Origin: an uncultured Gammaproteobacteria bacterium | GTDB lineage: Bacteria; Pseudomonadota; Gammaproteobacteria; SZUA-229 | Assembly: GCA_942492025.1 (NCBI GenBank) | Contig: CALODJ010000003.1 | Location: 79,648 to 143,647, forward strand | Direction of reading: 5' to 3' | DNA length: 64,000 nucleotides | Shown: positions 50,113 through 55,971 of the stretch, one piece after another | How positions within the stretch are numbered: position 1 is the stretch's first letter | Layout: the number at the start of each line of letters is the position of its first letter | Position numbers and translations under genes: made by a program | Notes under the pieces: model-generated | What the model saw: only the letters and a program-made list of their open reading frames with translations | The model's database searches: none | What the model was told of the DNA's origin: nothing

Positions 50113-50283
50113 ATGCGAGTTTTATGTTTGTTGCTGACCTGTTTGATGTTGATCGCCTGCGGCAAAACCGGCGCCCTGTACCTGCCCGAGGATGCCGAGA
50201 CGCAGCAGCAGAGTACCGATACCGATACCGATACCGAAGCCGAGACCGAGGCCGAGACCGAAACCATTAAGAAGGCTGAATAA
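50113..50283 (+). CDS. lptM: Small lipoprotein LptM/YifL/LppL family (56 aa)
   Basis: Below ORF cutoff; LIA-CGKTGALYLP motif; TAA overlaps the lysA ATG. Confidence 0.85.
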   Translation: MRVLCLLLTCLMLIACGKTGALYLPEDAETQQQSTDTDTDTEAETEAETETIKKAE

Positions 50284-51551
50284 TGGACTATTTCAATTAT
50301 CGCGAGGATCGGCTCTGGGCTGAGGATGTCGACATCGCCGCGCATGTCGAGCAATGGGGTACACCCTGCTATGTCTACTCGCGTGCCACTCTGGAGCGTC
50401 ACTGGCGTGCTTTCGATGAGGCTTTGTCATCGATTCCACACCTGGTGTGTTACGCCGTCAAGGCCAACTCCAATCTGGCGGTGCTCAATGTGCTCGCCCG
50501 ACTGGGTTCGGGTTTCGATATCGTTTCTGTGGGAGAGCTCGAGCGGGTGCTGGCTGCCGGTGGCGATGCAGCCAGGGTCGTCTTTTCCGGTGTGGGTAAA
50601 CGCAAGGATGAAATAACACGCGCCCTTGACGTCGGCATCCGCTGTTTTAATGTTGAGTCCACCGCTGAACTGGAGCTGATCAATGAGATCGCTGCTGCAC
50701 ACGGTGTAAAGGCGCCTGTATCATTGCGTGTCAATCCCGATGTTGATGCCAGAACACACCCCTACATATCGACCGGCCTGAAAGAAAACAAGTTTGGCAT
50801 TTCCATTGATGAGGCCATGACAGCGTACCAGCGTGCGGCCGACGCTGGCCACATCGACGTCCAGGGGATCGATTGCCATATCGGCTCCCAATTGACGGAA
50901 ATAGCACCATTTGTCGATGCCCTTGAGCGTGTGCTCTTACTGGTTGATCACCTGGCTGAACAGGGCATCAGGCTAAAGCATCTGGACATGGGCGGGGGAC
51001 TGGGTATCCGCTACCGCGATGAAGAGCCACCCGCGCCGGCGGAACATGCCGCCGCAATGGTTGAGCACCTGCAACACCGGGAACTGGAAATTCTAATCGA
51101 ACCAGGTCGCGCCATCGCTGGCAATGCGGGCCTGTTACTGACGCAAGTCCTGTTTTTGAAACACAGCGAAGACAAGAATTTCGCCGTGGTTGATGCGGCA
51201 ATGAATGACCTGATGCGTCCTGCCCTGTACGGTGCCTGGCAGGAGATCGTTCCCCTGCATTTGCGTCAGCCAGGGTCTGCCACGGCCACGGGCCCTGTGA
51301 AAATCTACGATGTTGTCGGCCCAGTCTGTGAAACGGGTGATTTCCTCGGTAAGGATCGTGAACTCGCGCTTGAGCAAGGCGATATCCTGGCCGTTCGCTC
51401 CTCCGGCGCGTATGGTTTCACGATGAGTTCGAACTACAATTCACGTCCGCGTGCGCCCGAGATCATGGTCGATGGTGATACTGCGACGATCGTGCGTGAG
51501 CGTGAAACCTTGCAGCAAGTTATGCAAGGTGAGCGCGTTCTATCTGCATAG
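50283..51551 (+). CDS. lysA: Diaminopimelate decarboxylase
   Basis: YAVKANSN, FSGVGK, HIGSQ, EPGRAI, GPVCETGD, SSNYNSRPR. Confidence 0.96.
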   Translation: MDYFNYREDRLWAEDVDIAAHVEQWGTPCYVYSRATLERHWRAFDEALSSIPHLVCYAVKANSNLAVLNVLARLGSGFDIVSVGELERVLAAGGDAARVVFSGVGKRKDEITRALDVGIRCFNVESTAELELINEIAAAHGVKAPVSLRVNPDVDARTHPYISTGLKENKFGISIDEAMTAYQRAADAGHIDVQGIDCHIGSQLTEIAPFVDALERVLLLVDHLAEQGIRLKHLDMGGGLGIRYRDEEPPAPAEHAAAMVEHLQHRELEILIEPGRAIAGNAGLLLTQVLFLKHSEDKNFAVVDAAMNDLMRPALYGAWQEIVPLHLRQPGSATATGPVKIYDVVGPVCETGDFLGKDRELALEQGDILAVRSSGAYGFTMSSNYNSRPRAPEIMVDGDTATIVRERETLQQVMQGERVLSA

Positions 51552-51643
51552 CTCATGCATTTGACACGACAAATAGTCCTGTTGTTTGTTATGTTCTTTG
51601 ATATGCTAGGTCAATTAAGACCGCTGATATTTAAGGTAACACT

Positions 51644-51814
51644 ATGAATTTATTATCCCGATTAATCATGCTGCTGACATTGTTGCTGGCCCTGGCCGCA
51701 CCCGCCAGTGCCGCTGTGGCGGTGGATCTGGATGGCTACTGTGATGTCGCTGCTGCTGATGATAAAAAAGATGACGAACAGAAGGACGACGAAGAAGAGC
51801 CTGAGTGCGATTAG
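51644..51814 (+). CDS. Small secreted acidic protein with two Cys (56 aa)
   Basis: Below ORF cutoff; MNLLSRLIMLLTLLLALAAPASA-AVAVDLDGYCDVAAADDKKDDEQKDDEEEPECD*; AAGGT RBS-like motif upstream. Confidence 0.8.
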   Translation: MNLLSRLIMLLTLLLALAAPASAAVAVDLDGYCDVAAADDKKDDEQKDDEEEPECD

Positions 51815-51911
51815 TACGGTTTTTAACCATTCCTGTAAACTGCTTCAGTCACTGACAATTTAATCAGGCAGCCGATGCGCTGCCGTTGCAATCAACCGGA
51901 GGAGACTCTCA

Positions 51912-52574
51912 ATGCTTAACGCTAAATCGATGGCCGCCTTTTTGCTGACAGCTGGCCTGGCTATATCAGCCAGTCTGGCCGTGGCGGCTGACAAGCCCGT
52001 TGGCATAACGTCAAAAATGATGGATGCCGAAGTTGTTCACGATGGCAAGAAAGTGAAAATTACTCGCAGCCAGAACAACAAGAATACCGTCAATCCATCG
52101 TTTTCGAAAACTTCACGCCCGTGCCCGCCATTCTGTATCCAGCCGTCAACAGTGGCCGCGGGTGTCGAAACGATCGGTGAGCTCGAGCTCATAGATTACT
52201 TGAAGAAAATGGCAGCAGGTGATGAGAGCATCCTGGTTATCGACTCGCGCACACCAGACTGGGTCAGGAAAGGCACCATTCCCGGTGCGGTCAATATCCC
52301 ATGGACAAAGCTGAACCCTGCCAAGGGTGCAGACCCGATTTCGATCGGCGAAATTCTGCAGGACCAGTTCAACGTCAAGGAGACAGAAGGCCTGTGGAAC
52401 TTCAATGACGCCAAGACACTGGTGATGTTCTGTAACGGTATGTGGTGCGGCCAGTCGCCAAACAACATCAGGAACCTGCTCAAATTCGGTTACCCGGCCC
52501 ATAAACTCAAGTGGTATCGCGGTGGTATGCAGGACTGGGAGATCCTGGGGCTCTCGACCATTCCGGGTAAATAA
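51912..52574 (+). CDS. Periplasmic rhodanese-domain sulfurtransferase (SoxL-like)
   Basis: Signal peptide, KTSRPCPPFCIQP, VIDSRT, GTIPGAVNIPW, FCNGMWCGQS, WYRGGMQDW; GGAG RBS. Confidence 0.8.
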   Translation: MLNAKSMAAFLLTAGLAISASLAVAADKPVGITSKMMDAEVVHDGKKVKITRSQNNKNTVNPSFSKTSRPCPPFCIQPSTVAAGVETIGELELIDYLKKMAAGDESILVIDSRTPDWVRKGTIPGAVNIPWTKLNPAKGADPISIGEILQDQFNVKETEGLWNFNDAKTLVMFCNGMWCGQSPNNIRNLLKFGYPAHKLKWYRGGMQDWEILGLSTIPGK

Positions 52575-52599
52575 GTCCCGCATCGCCTGTTGATGACGG

Positions 52600-52624
52600 A
52601 GGCCGCCTCCAGGTGGCCTTTTTT
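52600..52624 (+). terminator. Rho-independent terminator
   Basis: AGGCCGCCT-cc-AGGTGGCCT followed by a T-run. Confidence 0.7.
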
Positions 52625-52631
52625 ATGTTTT

Positions 52632-53030
52632 TTCACCGCAAAGGCGCAAAGAACAAAGCTGAATTAACCGCAGAGGCGCAGAGGATTATCTATACGTTGT
52701 CATCTCATGGTTAGCGAAATCTTTGGATTATGCGGGAATATCCCATTGACTTGGTTAAGACGATGGCTGTTCAAATTTTTCCGGCCGATCGTAGGGTGCG
52801 CCGTGCGCACCGCGAATAATCAGTTCGCTCAACAGCTTCGGTGCGCACGGCGCACCCTACGATCGGTCCATTCAGCTGTCAGTTAATTTTTGAATCGTTT
52901 CCACGATCTGTAAGATCAGATCTGAGTCACTACAAAAAACGCTGCGTCACCGCGCCTCTGCGGTTGATTCAGCTGGATTCTTTACTCTAATAAGCAATTA
53001 ACTTTGCGTTCTTTGCGCCTTTACGGTGAA
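52632..53030. repeat. Nested composite palindromic repeat, copy A
   Basis: Outer arms TTCACCGCAAAGGCGCAAAG/CTTTGCGCCTTTACGGTGAA; second arms 52657-52679 / 52952-52974; central REP doublet 52791-52860. Confidence 0.85.
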
Positions 53031-53040
53031 ATCACGTATC

Positions 53041-53883
53041 ATGCAGCTCGAATTCACTAAAATGCACGGTCTTGGCAATGATTTCGTGGTGATCGATGCG
53101 GTCAACCAGGAGGTCGCTTTGACCGGTAATCAGGTACGCCGCATTGCTGACAGGCATTTTGGTGTCGGTTGTGACCAGCTGCTGCTGGTCGAACGCCCCA
53201 GGCTTGCAGCGGCAGAGTTTCGCTATCGGATTTTCAACGCCGATGGCGGCGAGGTGCAGCAGTGTGGCAACGGCGCGCGCTGTTTTGCCCGTTTCGTGCA
53301 CGACAAGGGTATGACAGGCAGTACCCATATCGCGGTCGAAACCGCAGCAGGCATGATCTACCTGATCCTTGAGGAAGATGGACAAGTCACGGTTGATATG
53401 GGTGTGCCCTCATTTGATCCAGCCTCGCTGCCGTTTGAGGTTGACGACCTGGAGCAGGATGAGACCGAATACCACCAACTTGTGGTGAATGGCGTAAAGT
53501 ATGCTATAGGTGCAGTATCGGTTGGCAATCCACATGCGGTGTTGCTGGTTGATTCAGTGGAGAGGGCACCTGTTGCTACGCTGGGAGCCGCCATCGAATC
53601 TCATGAGTGCTTCCCCGAGCGTGTGAATGTCGGTTTTATGGAAATCATGGACCGATCGCATATACGCCTGCGGGTATTTGAACGTGGAGCAGGCGAGACC
53701 CTGGCTTGTGGGACGGGCGCCTGCGCAGCGGTTGCGATTGGCGTCCACAACAGCTTGCTGGATAGTCCCGTTGAGGTTAGATTAAAAGGCGGCATGTTAA
53801 AGATTCGCTGGTCCGGTGATGGCAGTAGCCTGTTTATGACCGGGCCGGCTCAAACTGTATACGAAGGTAAAATGACATTGTGA
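53041..53883 (+). CDS. dapF: Diaminopimelate epimerase
   Basis: FTKMHGLGNDF, QCGNGARC, VGNPHAV, FERGAGETLACGTGA. Confidence 0.96.
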   Translation: MQLEFTKMHGLGNDFVVIDAVNQEVALTGNQVRRIADRHFGVGCDQLLLVERPRLAAAEFRYRIFNADGGEVQQCGNGARCFARFVHDKGMTGSTHIAVETAAGMIYLILEEDGQVTVDMGVPSFDPASLPFEVDDLEQDETEYHQLVVNGVKYAIGAVSVGNPHAVLLVDSVERAPVATLGAAIESHECFPERVNVGFMEIMDRSHIRLRVFERGAGETLACGTGACAAVAIGVHNSLLDSPVEVRLKGGMLKIRWSGDGSSLFMTGPAQTVYEGKMTL

Positions 53884-55492: not shown

Positions 55493-55971
55493 TTCACCGC
55501 AAAGGCGCAAAGAACGCAAAGAAAGAAGCAGGCGGTGGTTTACCGCAGAGGCGCAGAGGATTATCTATGCGTTTTTATCTCATAGTTAGCGAAATCTTTG
55601 GATTATGTGGGTACGTCCCGCTGACTTGGTAAAGACGATGGCTGTTCAAATTTTTCCGGCCGATCGTAGGGTGCGCCGTGCGCACCGTGAATCCTCAGTG
55701 TGCTGGGCTGTTTCGGTGCGCACGGCGCACCCTACGGCCGCTTCGCCCAAGCTGCTGCTACGCTTTTCGCTCCAGAGCGGCGCTTACGAACACGAATCCT
55801 GCGCCTGCTCCCGTGATCCTGGTGAGAAATGCGGGTTAGCTGTCAGTCAATTTCTGAATCGTATCCACAATCTGTAAGATCAGATCTGAGTCACTGCAAA
55901 AAACGCTGCATCTTCGCGCCTCTGCGGTTAATTCAGCTTTATCTTCGCGTTCTTTGCGTCTTTGCGGTGAA
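55493..55971. repeat. Nested composite palindromic repeat, copy B
   Basis: Collinear with copy A; REP doublet 55666-55735 plus a MITE right half at 55756-55838. Confidence 0.85.

What the first reader, a model, noticed from the sequence alone, without database searches (positions are those of the whole stretch)
51644..52574. Unannotated secreted two-Cys acidic peptide paired with a SoxL-like rhodanese, inserted in the lysA-dapF operon
Seen: a 56-aa ORF missed by the ORF track, with a signal peptide (..APASA) and a ~33-aa mature acidic peptide carrying GYCD and a C-terminal EEEPECD. It is followed by a secreted rhodanese with CPPFC and CNGMWC motifs and a terminator. Established: lppL-lysA-dapF-DUF484-xerC is contiguous in Pseudomonas; SoxL of Allochromatium vinosum is a periplasmic rhodanese (similarity recalled, not computed). 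Inference: the peptide may be an uncharacterised periplasmic sulfane-sulfur carrier/acceptor or metal-binding partner of the rhodanese, i.e. a two-gene sulfur-trafficking module.
Basis: partly seen in the sequence, partly recalled or inferred. Interest (0 to 1): 0.7.

Follow-up and report, generated by a model that had tools for sequence, protein, structure and literature searches.

The report
Secreted Cys-tail peptide paired with rhodanese
A tiny, very acidic secreted peptide ending in …EEEP-[D/E]-Cys-[D/E] is encoded just upstream of an unusual four-cysteine periplasmic rhodanese in most related marine sulfur-bacterium genomes; it is probably a sulfur-carrying partner of that enzyme, and neither protein has been described before.

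Summary
Window 51644-51814 (+) encodes a 56-aa pre-peptide: a Sec signal, a 33-aa mature part (pI 4.05, charge -12), and the tail EEEPECD. A 220-aa secreted rhodanese follows at 51912-52574, then a terminator.

The small ORF is clearly a gene. It lies on the same strand just upstream of the rhodanese in 71 of 79 assessable related genomes. Substitutions concentrate at third codon positions, length changes are multiples of three, and Shine-Dalgarno sites are conserved. Only the penultimate Cys is invariant; the internal GYCD Cys is not.

All four rhodanese cysteines (CPPFC and the active-loop CNGMWC) are invariant in the clade. The second loop Cys replaces the usual Arg/Thr.

In other lineages the pair sits with secreted DsrE-family proteins, thioredoxin-fold proteins and soxXYZ(A/B). 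That supports a periplasmic sulfur or thiol function.

Neither protein matches a named family: no Pfam, NCBIfam or PHROGs hit for the peptide, and no paper found. "SoxL-like" could not be tested.

Unexpectedly, the same tail ends a separate family of phage-borne secreted peptides.

The best reading is a persulfide relay from the rhodanese Cys to the peptide's tail Cys. This is inferred, not shown.

The parts
51633..51637 (+). Shine-Dalgarno-like AAGGT, 6-10 nt upstream of the peptide start codon
   Evidence: Read from the sequence. GAGG/GGAG/AGGAG sits at the same distance in the 18 related loci inspected.
51644..51814 (+). Gene for the 56-aa pre-peptide. The Sec signal peptide is aa 1-23, with cleavage after A-S-A. 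The mature peptide is 33 aa, pI 4.05, charge -12.
   Evidence: Conserved in 71/79 related loci. Codon-position substitutions are biased about 2:1 to position 3, and ORF lengths differ by multiples of 3. The profile finds 316 protein clusters, all 'hypothetical', with no Pfam domain.
51740..51742 (+). Internal Cys33 (the GYCD motif). It is common in the family but not conserved throughout.
   Evidence: Absent from about 11 family members (for example L023, L031, L040, L049, L070).
51791..51811 (+). C-terminal tail EEEPECD. The penultimate Cys55 (51806-51808) is the only invariant residue of the family; Glu52 and Pro53 are conserved in 90% or more.
   Evidence: Alignment A1. Tail counts among the 120 database members listed: EEEPDCD 77, EEEPDCE 25, EEEPECD 11.
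51898..51904 (+). Shine-Dalgarno GGAGGAG of the rhodanese gene
   Evidence: Read from the sequence.
51912..52574 (+). Gene for the 220-aa secreted rhodanese. It has a signal peptide (aa 1-25), a ~70-aa N-terminal extension, and the rhodanese domain at aa 95-210. The mature protein has pI 8.9 and charge +4.
   Evidence: Pfam PF00581 at 47.8 bits. The AlphaFold model has mean pLDDT 71.5, with the rhodanese domain confident. Foldseek's best matches are single-domain rhodaneses, led by TSTD1 6bev. pI.
52122..52136 (+). CPPFC motif (C71, C75), inside the invariant stretch TSRPCPPFCIQP of the N-terminal extension
   Evidence: Invariant in 75/75 clade members. Retained in distant relatives that have lost the active-loop cysteines. 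Modelled with pLDDT below 50.
52431..52448 (+). Active-site loop CNGMWC. C174 is at the canonical catalytic position and C179 sits where rhodaneses usually have Arg/Thr.
   Evidence: In the alignment to yeast YOR285W (3d1p), C174 matches the catalytic Cys and C179 matches the Arg of CASGKR. Invariant in 75/75. C174 and C179 are mostly kept or lost together in distant relatives.
52598..52631 (+). Intrinsic-terminator-like hairpin plus T-run that closes the peptide-rhodanese unit
   Evidence: 10-pair stem, 6 G-C pairs, followed by TTTTATGTTTT.

Best explanation
The two genes encode a periplasmic sulfur-relay pair. Both products are exported by Sec.

Proposed mechanism:
1. The rhodanese takes sulfane sulfur onto its catalytic Cys174 as a persulfide. 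The donor could be polysulfide, thiosulfate, sulfur-globule sulfur or SoxY-bound sulfur.
2. It passes the sulfur to the penultimate cysteine of the 33-aa acidic, probably disordered peptide.
3. The peptide's poly-Glu/Asp tail (charge -12) docks on the basic enzyme (pI 8.9).
4. The loaded peptide (Cys-S-S-) then acts as a small, soluble, gene-encoded carrier. This is analogous to glutathione(-amide) persulfide, or to the C-terminal Cys arms of SoxY and DsrC. It hands sulfur on to other periplasmic proteins, such as the DsrE-family protein, Sox proteins or thioredoxin-fold proteins found next to the pair in other lineages.
5. The extra loop Cys179 and the CPPFC pair probably let the enzyme hold or resolve the sulfur as a di- or trisulfide.

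Shown: the gene is real, the linkage and conserved residues are as described, both products carry export signals, the charges are complementary, and the neighbours in other lineages are sulfur or thiol genes.

Inferred: every chemical step, the sulfur donor, and the direction of transfer.
For: - Tight linkage: the peptide gene is upstream of the rhodanese in 71/79 loci anchored on the rhodanese. In the reciprocal test, anchored on the tail motif in metagenomes, 67/94 assessable hits have the rhodanese downstream. All 7 database-peptide contigs inspected also have it.
- The only invariant peptide residue is the penultimate Cys. The Acidiferrobacteraceae variants have five Cys, an odd number that could leave the tail Cys free.
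- The rhodanese keeps the catalytic Cys at the canonical position, and all four Cys are invariant in the clade.
- Charges are complementary, +4 against -12.
- Context by association: a secreted DsrE/DsrF-family protein follows directly downstream in 28/80 loci (PF02635 at 48.6 bits for one subgroup, weak for the other). Thioredoxin_2 proteins are present in 15 loci, and soxXYZ lies within 6 kb in 5 loci. Contigs L082 and L085-L088 carry soxX-Y-Z-A with TusA and DsrE2-like genes, or soxY-B-Z with Sulf_transp.
- 6 of the 8 loci that lack the peptide have the DsrE-like gene (Fisher p = 0.002, confounded by lineage). That fits interchangeable acceptors.
- One phage-like contig (L151) pairs a peptide with the same tail with an unrelated, canonical rhodanese.
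- The named host lineages (Thiotrichaceae, Chromatiaceae, Ectothiorhodospiraceae, Thioalkalispiraceae, Acidiferrobacteraceae) are sulfur-oxidiser families by established knowledge.
- A carrier Cys in the penultimate position is established for DsrC (PMC3397948).
Against: - There is no biochemical or expression evidence.
- In the window's own lineage (28 lysA-dapF loci including the window) the pair stands alone. No sox, DsrE-like or thioredoxin gene was found anywhere in the 64-kb window.
- Replacing the loop Arg/Thr with Cys179 removes a residue that normally helps bind anionic donors such as thiosulfate. A CX4C loop looks as much like a redox disulfide as like a transferase site.
- Distant relatives that keep CPPFC but have lost the catalytic Cys show that the family's core function may not be sulfur transfer by Cys174.
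- Distant four-Cys relatives pair with a LysM protein rather than a peptide.
- Most phage-borne peptides with the same tail have no rhodanese nearby, so the tail may serve some other partner.
- A complex could not be modelled.
Confidence: 0.45

Rival explanations
1. Thiol-disulfide redox module. The rhodanese-fold protein uses its CX4C loop and/or its CX3C motif as redox-active disulfides, not as a persulfide carrier. The peptide would be a gene-encoded periplasmic low-molecular-weight thiol, a glutathione surrogate. It would be oxidised or reduced by the enzyme, or it would reduce or cap cysteines of other proteins such as SoxY. Neighbouring thioredoxin-fold proteins would supply or remove electrons.
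For: - C179 replaces the canonical Arg/Thr, and C174 and C179 are mostly kept or lost together (CC in most representatives; SS, DD, GS or AS in others).
- Thioredoxin_2, Redoxin/AhpC-TSA, DsbH-type thioredoxin and SCO1/SenC genes flank the pair in several lineages.
- There are weak NCBIfam matches to rhodanese families defined by paired redox residues: PQQ_CXXCW, TsoB and rhodanese-related (seleno)protein.
Against: - All the NCBIfam matches are far below their cut-offs (24 against 128 bits, and so on).
- The DsrE-family, TusA and Sox neighbours point to sulfur transfer rather than plain disulfide exchange.
- The window lineage has no thioredoxin next to the pair.
Confidence: 0.2
2. Autoinhibitory or chaperone-like partner. 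The acidic tail occupies the basic active-site cleft as a pseudo-substrate, possibly through a mixed disulfide to C174 or to CPPFC. This would keep the rhodanese inactive or protected in the oxidising periplasm until a sulfur substrate or a reductant displaces it.
For: - The gene order (peptide first), the implied stoichiometric co-expression, the tight linkage and the charge complementarity all fit.
- 8 loci do without the peptide although their rhodanese is intact. That fits an accessory regulator rather than an essential substrate.
Against: - This does not explain the phage-borne family with the same tail and no rhodanese.
- It does not explain why the variable linker is long and of low complexity.
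- There is no precedent that I know of for rhodaneses.
Confidence: 0.1
3. Metal handling. The poly-carboxylate peptide with a terminal Cys binds a metal (Cu, Zn, Fe or Ca) in the periplasm. The CX3C motif of the rhodanese-fold protein, which resembles the CxxxC copper site of SCO proteins, would take part in metal transfer.
For: - The acidic, Cys-bearing composition fits.
- A SCO1/SenC gene lies close upstream in L085, two genes away with a DsbH-type thioredoxin in between.
- Feo and NikR/NicO genes lie near two distant relatives.
- CPPFC is the motif most widely kept in the family.
Against: - The family has only one invariant ligand-type residue, and no conserved His or Met.
- The metal-gene neighbours are sporadic, while the DsrE-like, thioredoxin and sox neighbours recur.
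- The resemblance of CX3C to SCO is recalled, not tested.
Confidence: 0.08
4. The small ORF is not translated into a functional product; it would be a leader or spacer that happens to be open.
For: - It is short (56 aa) and of low complexity, and I found no expression data.
Against: - It is conserved as an ORF in 71/79 loci at only 18-61% peptide identity.
- Third-position substitutions are in excess, indels are in frame, and Shine-Dalgarno sites are conserved.
- The tail is invariant and found nowhere else in the six-frame translations of the loci.
- No Rfam family matches above threshold.
Confidence: 0.02

Closest known systems
SoxY (of SoxYZ) and DsrC/TusE: sulfur-carrier proteins with a reactive Cys on a flexible C-terminal arm
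   Same: The reactive Cys is at or next to the C-terminus: penultimate in DsrC (PMC3397948) and GGCGG in SoxY (established knowledge). Both carriers work with dedicated sulfurtransferases, and SoxY is periplasmic. soxYZ genes lie within 3-6 kb of the pair in several lineages.
   Different: There is no sequence or fold relationship; the peptide has no Pfam hit at all. The peptide is about 33 aa, highly acidic and probably unstructured, whereas those are folded domains of 100 aa or more. Its tail motif, EEEP[DE]C[DE], is unlike theirs.
Single-domain sulfurtransferases that use a small thiol acceptor (human TSTD1, yeast RDL1/YOR285W; E. coli PspE and GlpE)
   Same: The rhodanese fold, with the catalytic Cys at the start of the active-site loop. 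TSTD1 (6bev) and YOR285W (3d1p) are the best sequence and structure matches. By established knowledge, TSTD1 and RDL1 transfer sulfur to glutathione, a small anionic thiol, and PspE is periplasmic.
   Different: The matches are very weak (E 0.03-0.06 by sequence; Foldseek E 8e-3). This protein also has a 70-aa N-terminal extension with an invariant CPPFC, and a second Cys in the loop in place of Arg/Thr. Its presumed acceptor is gene-encoded and co-transcribed.
SoxL of Allochromatium vinosum (Alvin_2171), the periplasmic rhodanese of the soxXAKL cluster
   Same: A secreted rhodanese-family protein in a sulfur-oxidising gammaproteobacterium. SoxL is proposed to move sulfane sulfur off SoxY (PMC3368242).
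   Different: The pair is not in a soxXAK cluster in the window or in any locus examined. No partner peptide has been described for SoxL.
Rhd-TusA-DsrE2 and DsrE3-TusA cytoplasmic sulfur relays
   Same: They combine a rhodanese with DsrE-family proteins and a small carrier that passes persulfide or thiosulfonate. Here the rhodanese is followed by a DsrE-family gene in 28/80 loci.
   Different: Those systems are cytoplasmic and use the folded TusA as carrier. Here all components carry signal peptides, and the carrier candidate is a short acidic peptide.
TIGR03865 PQQ_CXXCW, NF045694 TsoB and NF041203 rhodanese-related (seleno)protein
   Same: Rhodanese-fold proteins whose active-site region carries two redox-type residues. 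These are the best NCBIfam matches.
   Different: Scores are far below the cut-offs (24.3 against 128; 18.2 against 805; 15 against 115 bits). The motif differs (CX4C against CXXCW). There is no PQQ or selenoprotein context.

Membership tests
Rhodanese-like domain superfamily (PF00581) | Sequence match to the family profile above the curated cut-off | tested here: met
   47.8 bits against a cut-off of 22.2, residues 95-210.
Rhodanese-like domain superfamily (PF00581) | Rhodanese alpha/beta fold | tested here: met
   The AlphaFold model is confident over the domain. All top Foldseek PDB hits are rhodanese domains, although the E-values are weak (8e-3 and above).
Catalytically active sulfurtransferase-type rhodanese | Cys at the first position of the six-residue active-site loop | tested here: met
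   C174 aligns with the catalytic Cys of YOR285W. It is invariant in 75 clade members.
Catalytically active sulfurtransferase-type rhodanese | Cationic or hydroxyl residue (Arg/Lys/Thr/Ser) at the end of the CX4[RT] loop | tested here: not met
   The position is occupied by Cys179. The loop is CNGMWC-GQS.
Catalytically active sulfurtransferase-type rhodanese | Thiosulfate:cyanide or persulfide transfer activity | not testable with these tools
   This needs an enzyme assay.
SoxL (Alvin_2171-type periplasmic rhodanese) | Encoded in or next to a soxXAK(L) cluster | tested here: not met
   There is no sox gene in the 64-kb window. In other lineages sox genes lie 1-6 kb away but never in a soxXAK-L arrangement.
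SoxL (Alvin_2171-type periplasmic rhodanese) | Sequence orthology to A. vinosum SoxL | not testable with these tools
   The SoxL sequence could not be retrieved. Only its locus tag is given in PMC3368242.
SoxL (Alvin_2171-type periplasmic rhodanese) | Periplasmic location (signal peptide) | tested here: met
   The N-terminus MLNAKSMAAFLLTAGLAISASLAVA|ADKP has the n-h-c organisation and an AXA site, read from the sequence.
TIGR03865 PQQ-dependent catabolism-associated CXXCW protein | Profile score above the cut-off, and a CXXCW motif | tested here: not met
   24.3 bits against a cut-off of 128. The motif here is CNGMWC.
SoxY / DsrC / TusE carrier families (for the peptide) | Homology to PF13501 SoxY or to the DsrC/TusE fold | tested here: not met
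   No Pfam hit apart from a spurious sub-threshold Porin_4 match on the signal peptide. No NCBIfam hit at E<=1.
SoxY / DsrC / TusE carrier families (for the peptide) | Conserved reactive Cys at or next to the C-terminus on a flexible arm | tested here: met
   The penultimate Cys is the only invariant column. The preceding linker is low-complexity D/E/K/G and variable in length. This is an analogy only.
RiPP precursor peptide | Adjacent maturase (rSAM, YcaO, lanthipeptide synthetase and the like) and a leader rather than a Sec signal | tested here: not met
   No such gene was seen in the sampled neighbour clusters or contigs. The N-terminus is a typical Sec signal with an AXA site.
DsrE/DsrF-like family (the accessory neighbour in other lineages; not in the window) | Profile score above the cut-off, and a conserved Cys | tested here: met
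   Subgroup a scores 48.6 bits on PF02635 against a cut-off of 22.7. Subgroup b scores only 19.3 bits, which is below the cut-off. An invariant Cys is present in FKVCG or HVCETH.

The most novel reading that the evidence does not exclude
The peptide is a new kind of sulfur carrier: a ribosomally made, Sec-exported, intrinsically disordered acidic peptide of about 30 residues. Its penultimate Cys would shuttle persulfide sulfur through the periplasm of sulfur-oxidising bacteria, loaded by a dedicated four-Cys rhodanese. It would then be a candidate for the long-postulated soluble perthiol carrier between periplasmic sulfur pools and downstream enzymes. The EEEPDC[DE] tail would be a portable 'sulfur handle' that marine phages have also acquired to tap or perturb host periplasmic thiol or sulfur chemistry.
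Probability: 0.2. Interest if true: 0.85.

Novelty: new variant of a known kind. Interest (0 to 1): 0.62.

Why it matters
How sulfane sulfur is moved around the periplasm of sulfur-oxidising bacteria is unresolved. This covers movement between Sox proteins, sulfur globules and the cytoplasmic membrane. [quoted passage not shown]

Here there is a conserved, widespread gene pair: at least 316 peptide clusters and hundreds of genomes. It encodes a candidate carrier and its loading enzyme, so the question can be tested directly with a synthetic 33-mer and one recombinant enzyme.

The finding also defines two undescribed families: a tail-Cys acidic peptide, and a four-Cys rhodanese with an invariant TSRPCPPFCIQP extension. 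It is another case of a functional small protein lying below ORF-calling thresholds.

The same tail on phage-encoded secreted peptides hints at a wider recognition motif whose partner is unknown.

Tried and rejected
No docking evidence could be obtained.
- The search for related loci with the peptide alignment failed because no stretch was conserved enough. I replaced it with a degenerate DNA pattern for the tail.
- SoxL similarity could not be tested. The literature gives only the locus tag and no tool could fetch the sequence.
- The PDB sequence search with the DsrE-like neighbour found nothing.
- tblastn of a phage-class peptide against isolated phage genomes found nothing, and PHROGs has no family for either peptide class.
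- Rfam gave only two sub-threshold miRNA-model hits, on the hairpin inside the adjacent repeat element. I rejected these as chance.
- The promoter scan found no sigma-70-like site on the + strand between lysA and the peptide. Whether the pair has its own promoter or is read through from lysA is open.
- I looked for a Rosetta-stone fusion of the acidic Cys tail to a rhodanese among 150 family representatives and found none.
- I looked for the peptide upstream of distant four-Cys relatives (40-48% identity) and found none. The pairing is therefore clade-specific.
- Literature searches for a periplasmic rhodanese with a small Cys peptide returned nothing relevant.
- I considered and rejected a RiPP precursor (no maturase; Sec signal), a lipoprotein (no lipobox in the peptide) and a sulfur-globule protein (those are Gly/Tyr-rich and lack Cys, by established knowledge).
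Full report
**1. What is in the window**

Positions 51644-51814 (+) hold an ATG-started ORF of 56 codons. It translates to MNLLSRLIMLLTLLLALAAPASAAVAVDLDGYCDVAAADDKKDDEQKDDEEEPECD.
- The first 23 residues form a standard Sec signal: an n-region with Arg, a Leu-rich core, and A-S-A before the cut.
- The mature 33-mer has 15 Asp/Glu against 3 Lys. Its pI is 4.05 and its charge at pH 7 is -12.
- An AAGG Shine-Dalgarno site lies 7-11 nt upstream of the start.

After a 97-nt spacer comes a strong GGAGGAG Shine-Dalgarno site, then a 220-codon ORF at 51912-52574.
- It has a signal peptide (…SLAVA|ADKP).
- A roughly 70-residue N-terminal extension contains CPPFC.
- A rhodanese domain follows (PF00581, 47.8 bits), with the loop CNGMWC.
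- A terminator-like hairpin with a T-run follows at 52598-52621.

The flanking genes are a lppL-like lipoprotein, lysA (50283-51551), dapF (from about 53026/53041), DUF484 and xerC. The rest of the window is core chromosome: gidA, yidC, dnaA, gyrB, and tamB- and asmA-like genes.

**2. Is the small ORF a gene?**

Yes.
- I fetched 80 genome loci that encode homologues of the rhodanese at 68-87% identity. All are MAGs of Gammaproteobacteria, several of them named Thiotrichales/Thiotrichaceae, Chromatiaceae, Ectothiorhodospiraceae, Thioalkalispiraceae or Acidiferrobacteraceae.
- In 71 of the 79 loci with enough upstream sequence there is a small ORF on the same strand, ending 50-230 bp before the rhodanese start (644 bp in one locus). 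Each has a signal peptide, an acidic low-complexity body and a tail of the form …E-E-E-P-[D/E]-C-[D/E]-stop.
- A six-frame scan of all the loci and of the whole window for the strict tail found it only at that position.
- Within three subgroups, substitutions fall about twice as often on codon position 3 as on position 1 or 2. ORF lengths differ only by multiples of three. A GAGG/GGAG/AGGAG motif precedes the ATG in each of the 18 loci inspected.
- A profile of 40 of these peptides finds 316 protein clusters in the public protein collection. All are unnamed or 'hypothetical protein', and none has a Pfam domain.
- The window peptide itself has no Pfam, NCBIfam or PHROGs family.
- No Rfam family accounts for the region.

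**3. What is conserved in the peptide**

- In the 40-sequence alignment, the only invariant residue is the penultimate Cys. The Glu and Pro three and two positions before it are conserved in 90% or more.
- The Acidiferrobacteraceae members instead carry five Cys: AWCEAN…CATWCESNP…IC[QK]EPECD.
- The linker between the N-terminal part and the tail is D/E/K/G/P-rich and varies in length.
- The functional core is therefore a secreted acidic tether that ends in P-[D/E]-C-[D/E]-COOH.

**4. The rhodanese**

- All four cysteines are invariant in 75 clade members, as are the stretches TSRPCPPFCIQP and FCNGMWCGQSPNNIR.
- In the alignment with yeast YOR285W/RDL1, C174 falls on the catalytic Cys. C179 falls on the Arg that closes the canonical CX4R loop. 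The protein keeps the nucleophile but swaps the usual cationic residue for a second thiol.
- The AlphaFold model (mean pLDDT 71.5) is confident for the rhodanese domain and for a small beta-hairpin at residues 39-50. It is poor for the CPPFC segment.
- Foldseek finds only generic single-domain rhodaneses, with TSTD1 best at E 8e-3. PDB sequence matches are marginal.
- NCBIfam gives only far-sub-threshold matches to PQQ_CXXCW, TsoB and a rhodanese-related selenoprotein family.
- An exhaustive search of 1.84 billion representatives finds 881 relatives at E<=1e-3 and 108 at E<=1e-30.
- Among about 100 full-length representatives, 44 keep all four Cys. About a dozen keep CPPFC but have lost one or both loop cysteines (SS, DD, GS, AS). 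About twenty keep the loop pair but lack CPPFC. The two Cys pairs therefore behave as separable units, and the loop pair tends to be kept or lost together.
- None of the 150 representatives listed carries the acidic Cys tail as a fusion.

**5. Context elsewhere**

The lysA-[pair]-dapF arrangement of the window is shared by 27 of the 80 loci. One of them (L008/L081) has lost the peptide gene.

In another 28 loci the rhodanese is followed directly by a secreted protein of about 170 aa.
- One subgroup of this protein is a bona fide DsrE/DsrF-family member (PF02635, 48.6 bits).
- The other subgroup is a weak match (19.3 bits).
- Both subgroups have an invariant Cys.

Thioredoxin_2 proteins occur in 15 loci, DUF3530 hydrolases in 15, AhpC/TSA in 10, and soxXYZ within 6 kb in 5.

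I also examined contigs found from database peptides rather than from the rhodanese.
- L082 and L086-L088 read: soxX-Y-Z(-A), TusA, DsrE2-like … double thioredoxin(-) | peptide, rhodanese, thioredoxin, DsrE-like, 79-aa protein, DUF3530, redoxin.
- L085 reads: Sulf_transp, soxY, soxB, soxZ, cytochrome c, DUF302, SCO1/SenC, DsbH-type thioredoxin | peptide, rhodanese … DUF3530.

Six of the eight loci without the peptide have the DsrE-like gene (Fisher p = 0.002; lineage is a confounder).

The window itself has none of these accessory genes anywhere in its 64 kb.

Distant four-Cys relatives at 40-48% identity (Thermopetrobacter, a betaproteobacterium, Crenotrichaceae and one unnamed contig) have no upstream peptide. 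They have a downstream LysM-domain protein that is essentially Cys-free.

**6. Reciprocal test, and a surprise**

I scanned metagenome contigs for DNA encoding EEEPDC[D/E]-stop. The chance expectation is about 15 matches per 10^12 nt.
- 110 of them are small ORFs with a signal peptide.
- Of the 94 with at least 400 nt of downstream sequence, 67 are followed by a homologue of the rhodanese.
- The other 27 are not.

Those 27, and all 34 matches in IMG/VR viral contigs, are a second peptide family. An example is MKLSTFVLLFALVICVTTARA|ESKTMTMVVDGKPIITITVSEEDT…EEEPDCE.
- They lie among phage genes: T4-type RNase H, DUF3310 and glutaredoxin.
- The contigs are about 70% identical in nucleotide sequence to parts of Pelagibacter myophages Mosig and HTVC008M.
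- They are absent from isolated-phage records and from PHROGs.
- In one such contig (L151) the peptide is followed 78 nt later by a canonical 108-aa rhodanese with the loop CHLGIRS. It scores 35 bits on PF00581 and has no signal peptide.
- The other phage contigs have no rhodanese within reach.

The tail is thus a portable motif with at least two carriers. Its partner in the phage setting is unknown.

**7. Interpretation**

The most economical reading is a periplasmic sulfur relay. Cys174 of the rhodanese forms a persulfide and passes the sulfur to the peptide's penultimate Cys. The peptide's acidic tail is attracted to the basic enzyme (+4 against -12).

The persulfidated peptide then acts as a diffusible carrier towards DsrE-family, Sox or thioredoxin-fold proteins. 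This mirrors the C-terminal Cys arms of SoxY and DsrC; DsrC is persulfurated on its penultimate Cys (PMC3397948). It also mirrors the use of glutathione by TSTD1-type rhodaneses (established knowledge).

The proposal touches an open question. [quoted passage not shown]

Every chemical step is inferred. Three things keep a thiol-redox role, a regulatory pseudo-substrate role and a metal role alive:
- the CX4C loop;
- the independent persistence of CPPFC in relatives that lack the catalytic Cys;
- the different partners (LysM protein, or none) elsewhere in the family.

I put the relay at about 0.45.

**8. Comparison and novelty**

The enzyme is a member of the rhodanese superfamily, but of no named subfamily. 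SoxL membership fails the context test and could not be tested by sequence.

The peptide belongs to no described family. No paper in the searchable library mentions anything like it.

In concept the pair is a new variant of a known kind of system: a sulfurtransferase plus a carrier with a C-terminal Cys. The unusual feature is that the carrier is a short, disordered, secreted, gene-encoded peptide.

**9. Verdict**

Interest is moderately high. The families are undescribed, widespread in marine sulfur-cycling bacteria, and easy to test. The phage-borne tail adds an unexplained twist.

Noticed in passing
L093-L246 (for example L240:460-642, L217, L228, L151); not in the window: A second family of small secreted peptides ends in the same tail …TEEEPDCE. 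It includes all 34 IMG/VR matches and 27 metagenome loci, and it lies among T4-like phage genes (RNase H, DUF3310, glutaredoxin). The contigs are about 70% identical in nucleotide sequence to Pelagibacter myophages Mosig and HTVC008M. The family is not in PHROGs or in isolated-phage records. In one contig (L151) the peptide is followed by a canonical 108-aa rhodanese.
   Followed up: partly
window 52632-53030 and 55493-55971: Two copies of a 400-480-bp MITE-like element bounded by inverted repeats TTCACCGCAAAGGCGCAAAGAAC, 89-91% identical inside and with an internal hairpin. One copy sits between the rhodanese terminator and dapF, the other after xerC. There are four repeat-end matches in the window against zero expected.
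   Followed up: partly
window 53008-53041: The GTG at 53026 that the ORF listing gives as the dapF start lies inside the right inverted repeat of the element. The real start is more likely the ATG at 53041 (MQLEFTKMHGLGNDF…).
   Followed up: no
window rhodanese aa 38-52 (52023-52067) compared with the phage peptides (for example L228): The beta-hairpin of the rhodanese N-terminal extension (…AEVVHDGKKVKITR…) resembles the mature N-terminus of the phage-borne tail peptides (…TLDVDGKKVITITV…, …TMEVDGKEIITITV…). This could be chance or a shared small domain.
   Followed up: no
L089-L092 (Thermopetrobacter sp. TC1, a betaproteobacterial MAG, a Crenotrichaceae MAG, one unnamed contig): Distant four-Cys relatives of the rhodanese (40-48% identity) are each followed by a secreted or anchored LysM-domain protein of 150-266 aa that is essentially Cys-free. 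They have no upstream acidic peptide. This is a different conserved partnership within the same enzyme family.
   Followed up: partly
P0241-P0390 (family representatives): The two Cys pairs of the rhodanese family are lost independently. Some members keep CPPFC but have SS, DD, GS or AS in the active loop, and others keep the loop CX4C but lack CPPFC. P0241 is a tandem duplication of the whole protein (449 aa).
   Followed up: partly
window 50113-50283: The small lipoprotein upstream of lysA (lipobox LIAC|G, at the lppL/LptM position) has an acidic repeat tail, TDTDTDTEAETEAETE. It had no Pfam hit at E<=0.01.
   Followed up: no
L020-L072 subsets; L082-L088: Genes that recur downstream of the pair in other lineages include a Cys-free 79-aa protein with no Pfam family (MPYYLFKISSGDKLDLVKNLELLEVFD…) and a DUF3530 alpha/beta-hydrolase. 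Together with thioredoxin and a DsrE-like protein they form a conserved block of about six genes that has not been described.
   Followed up: partly
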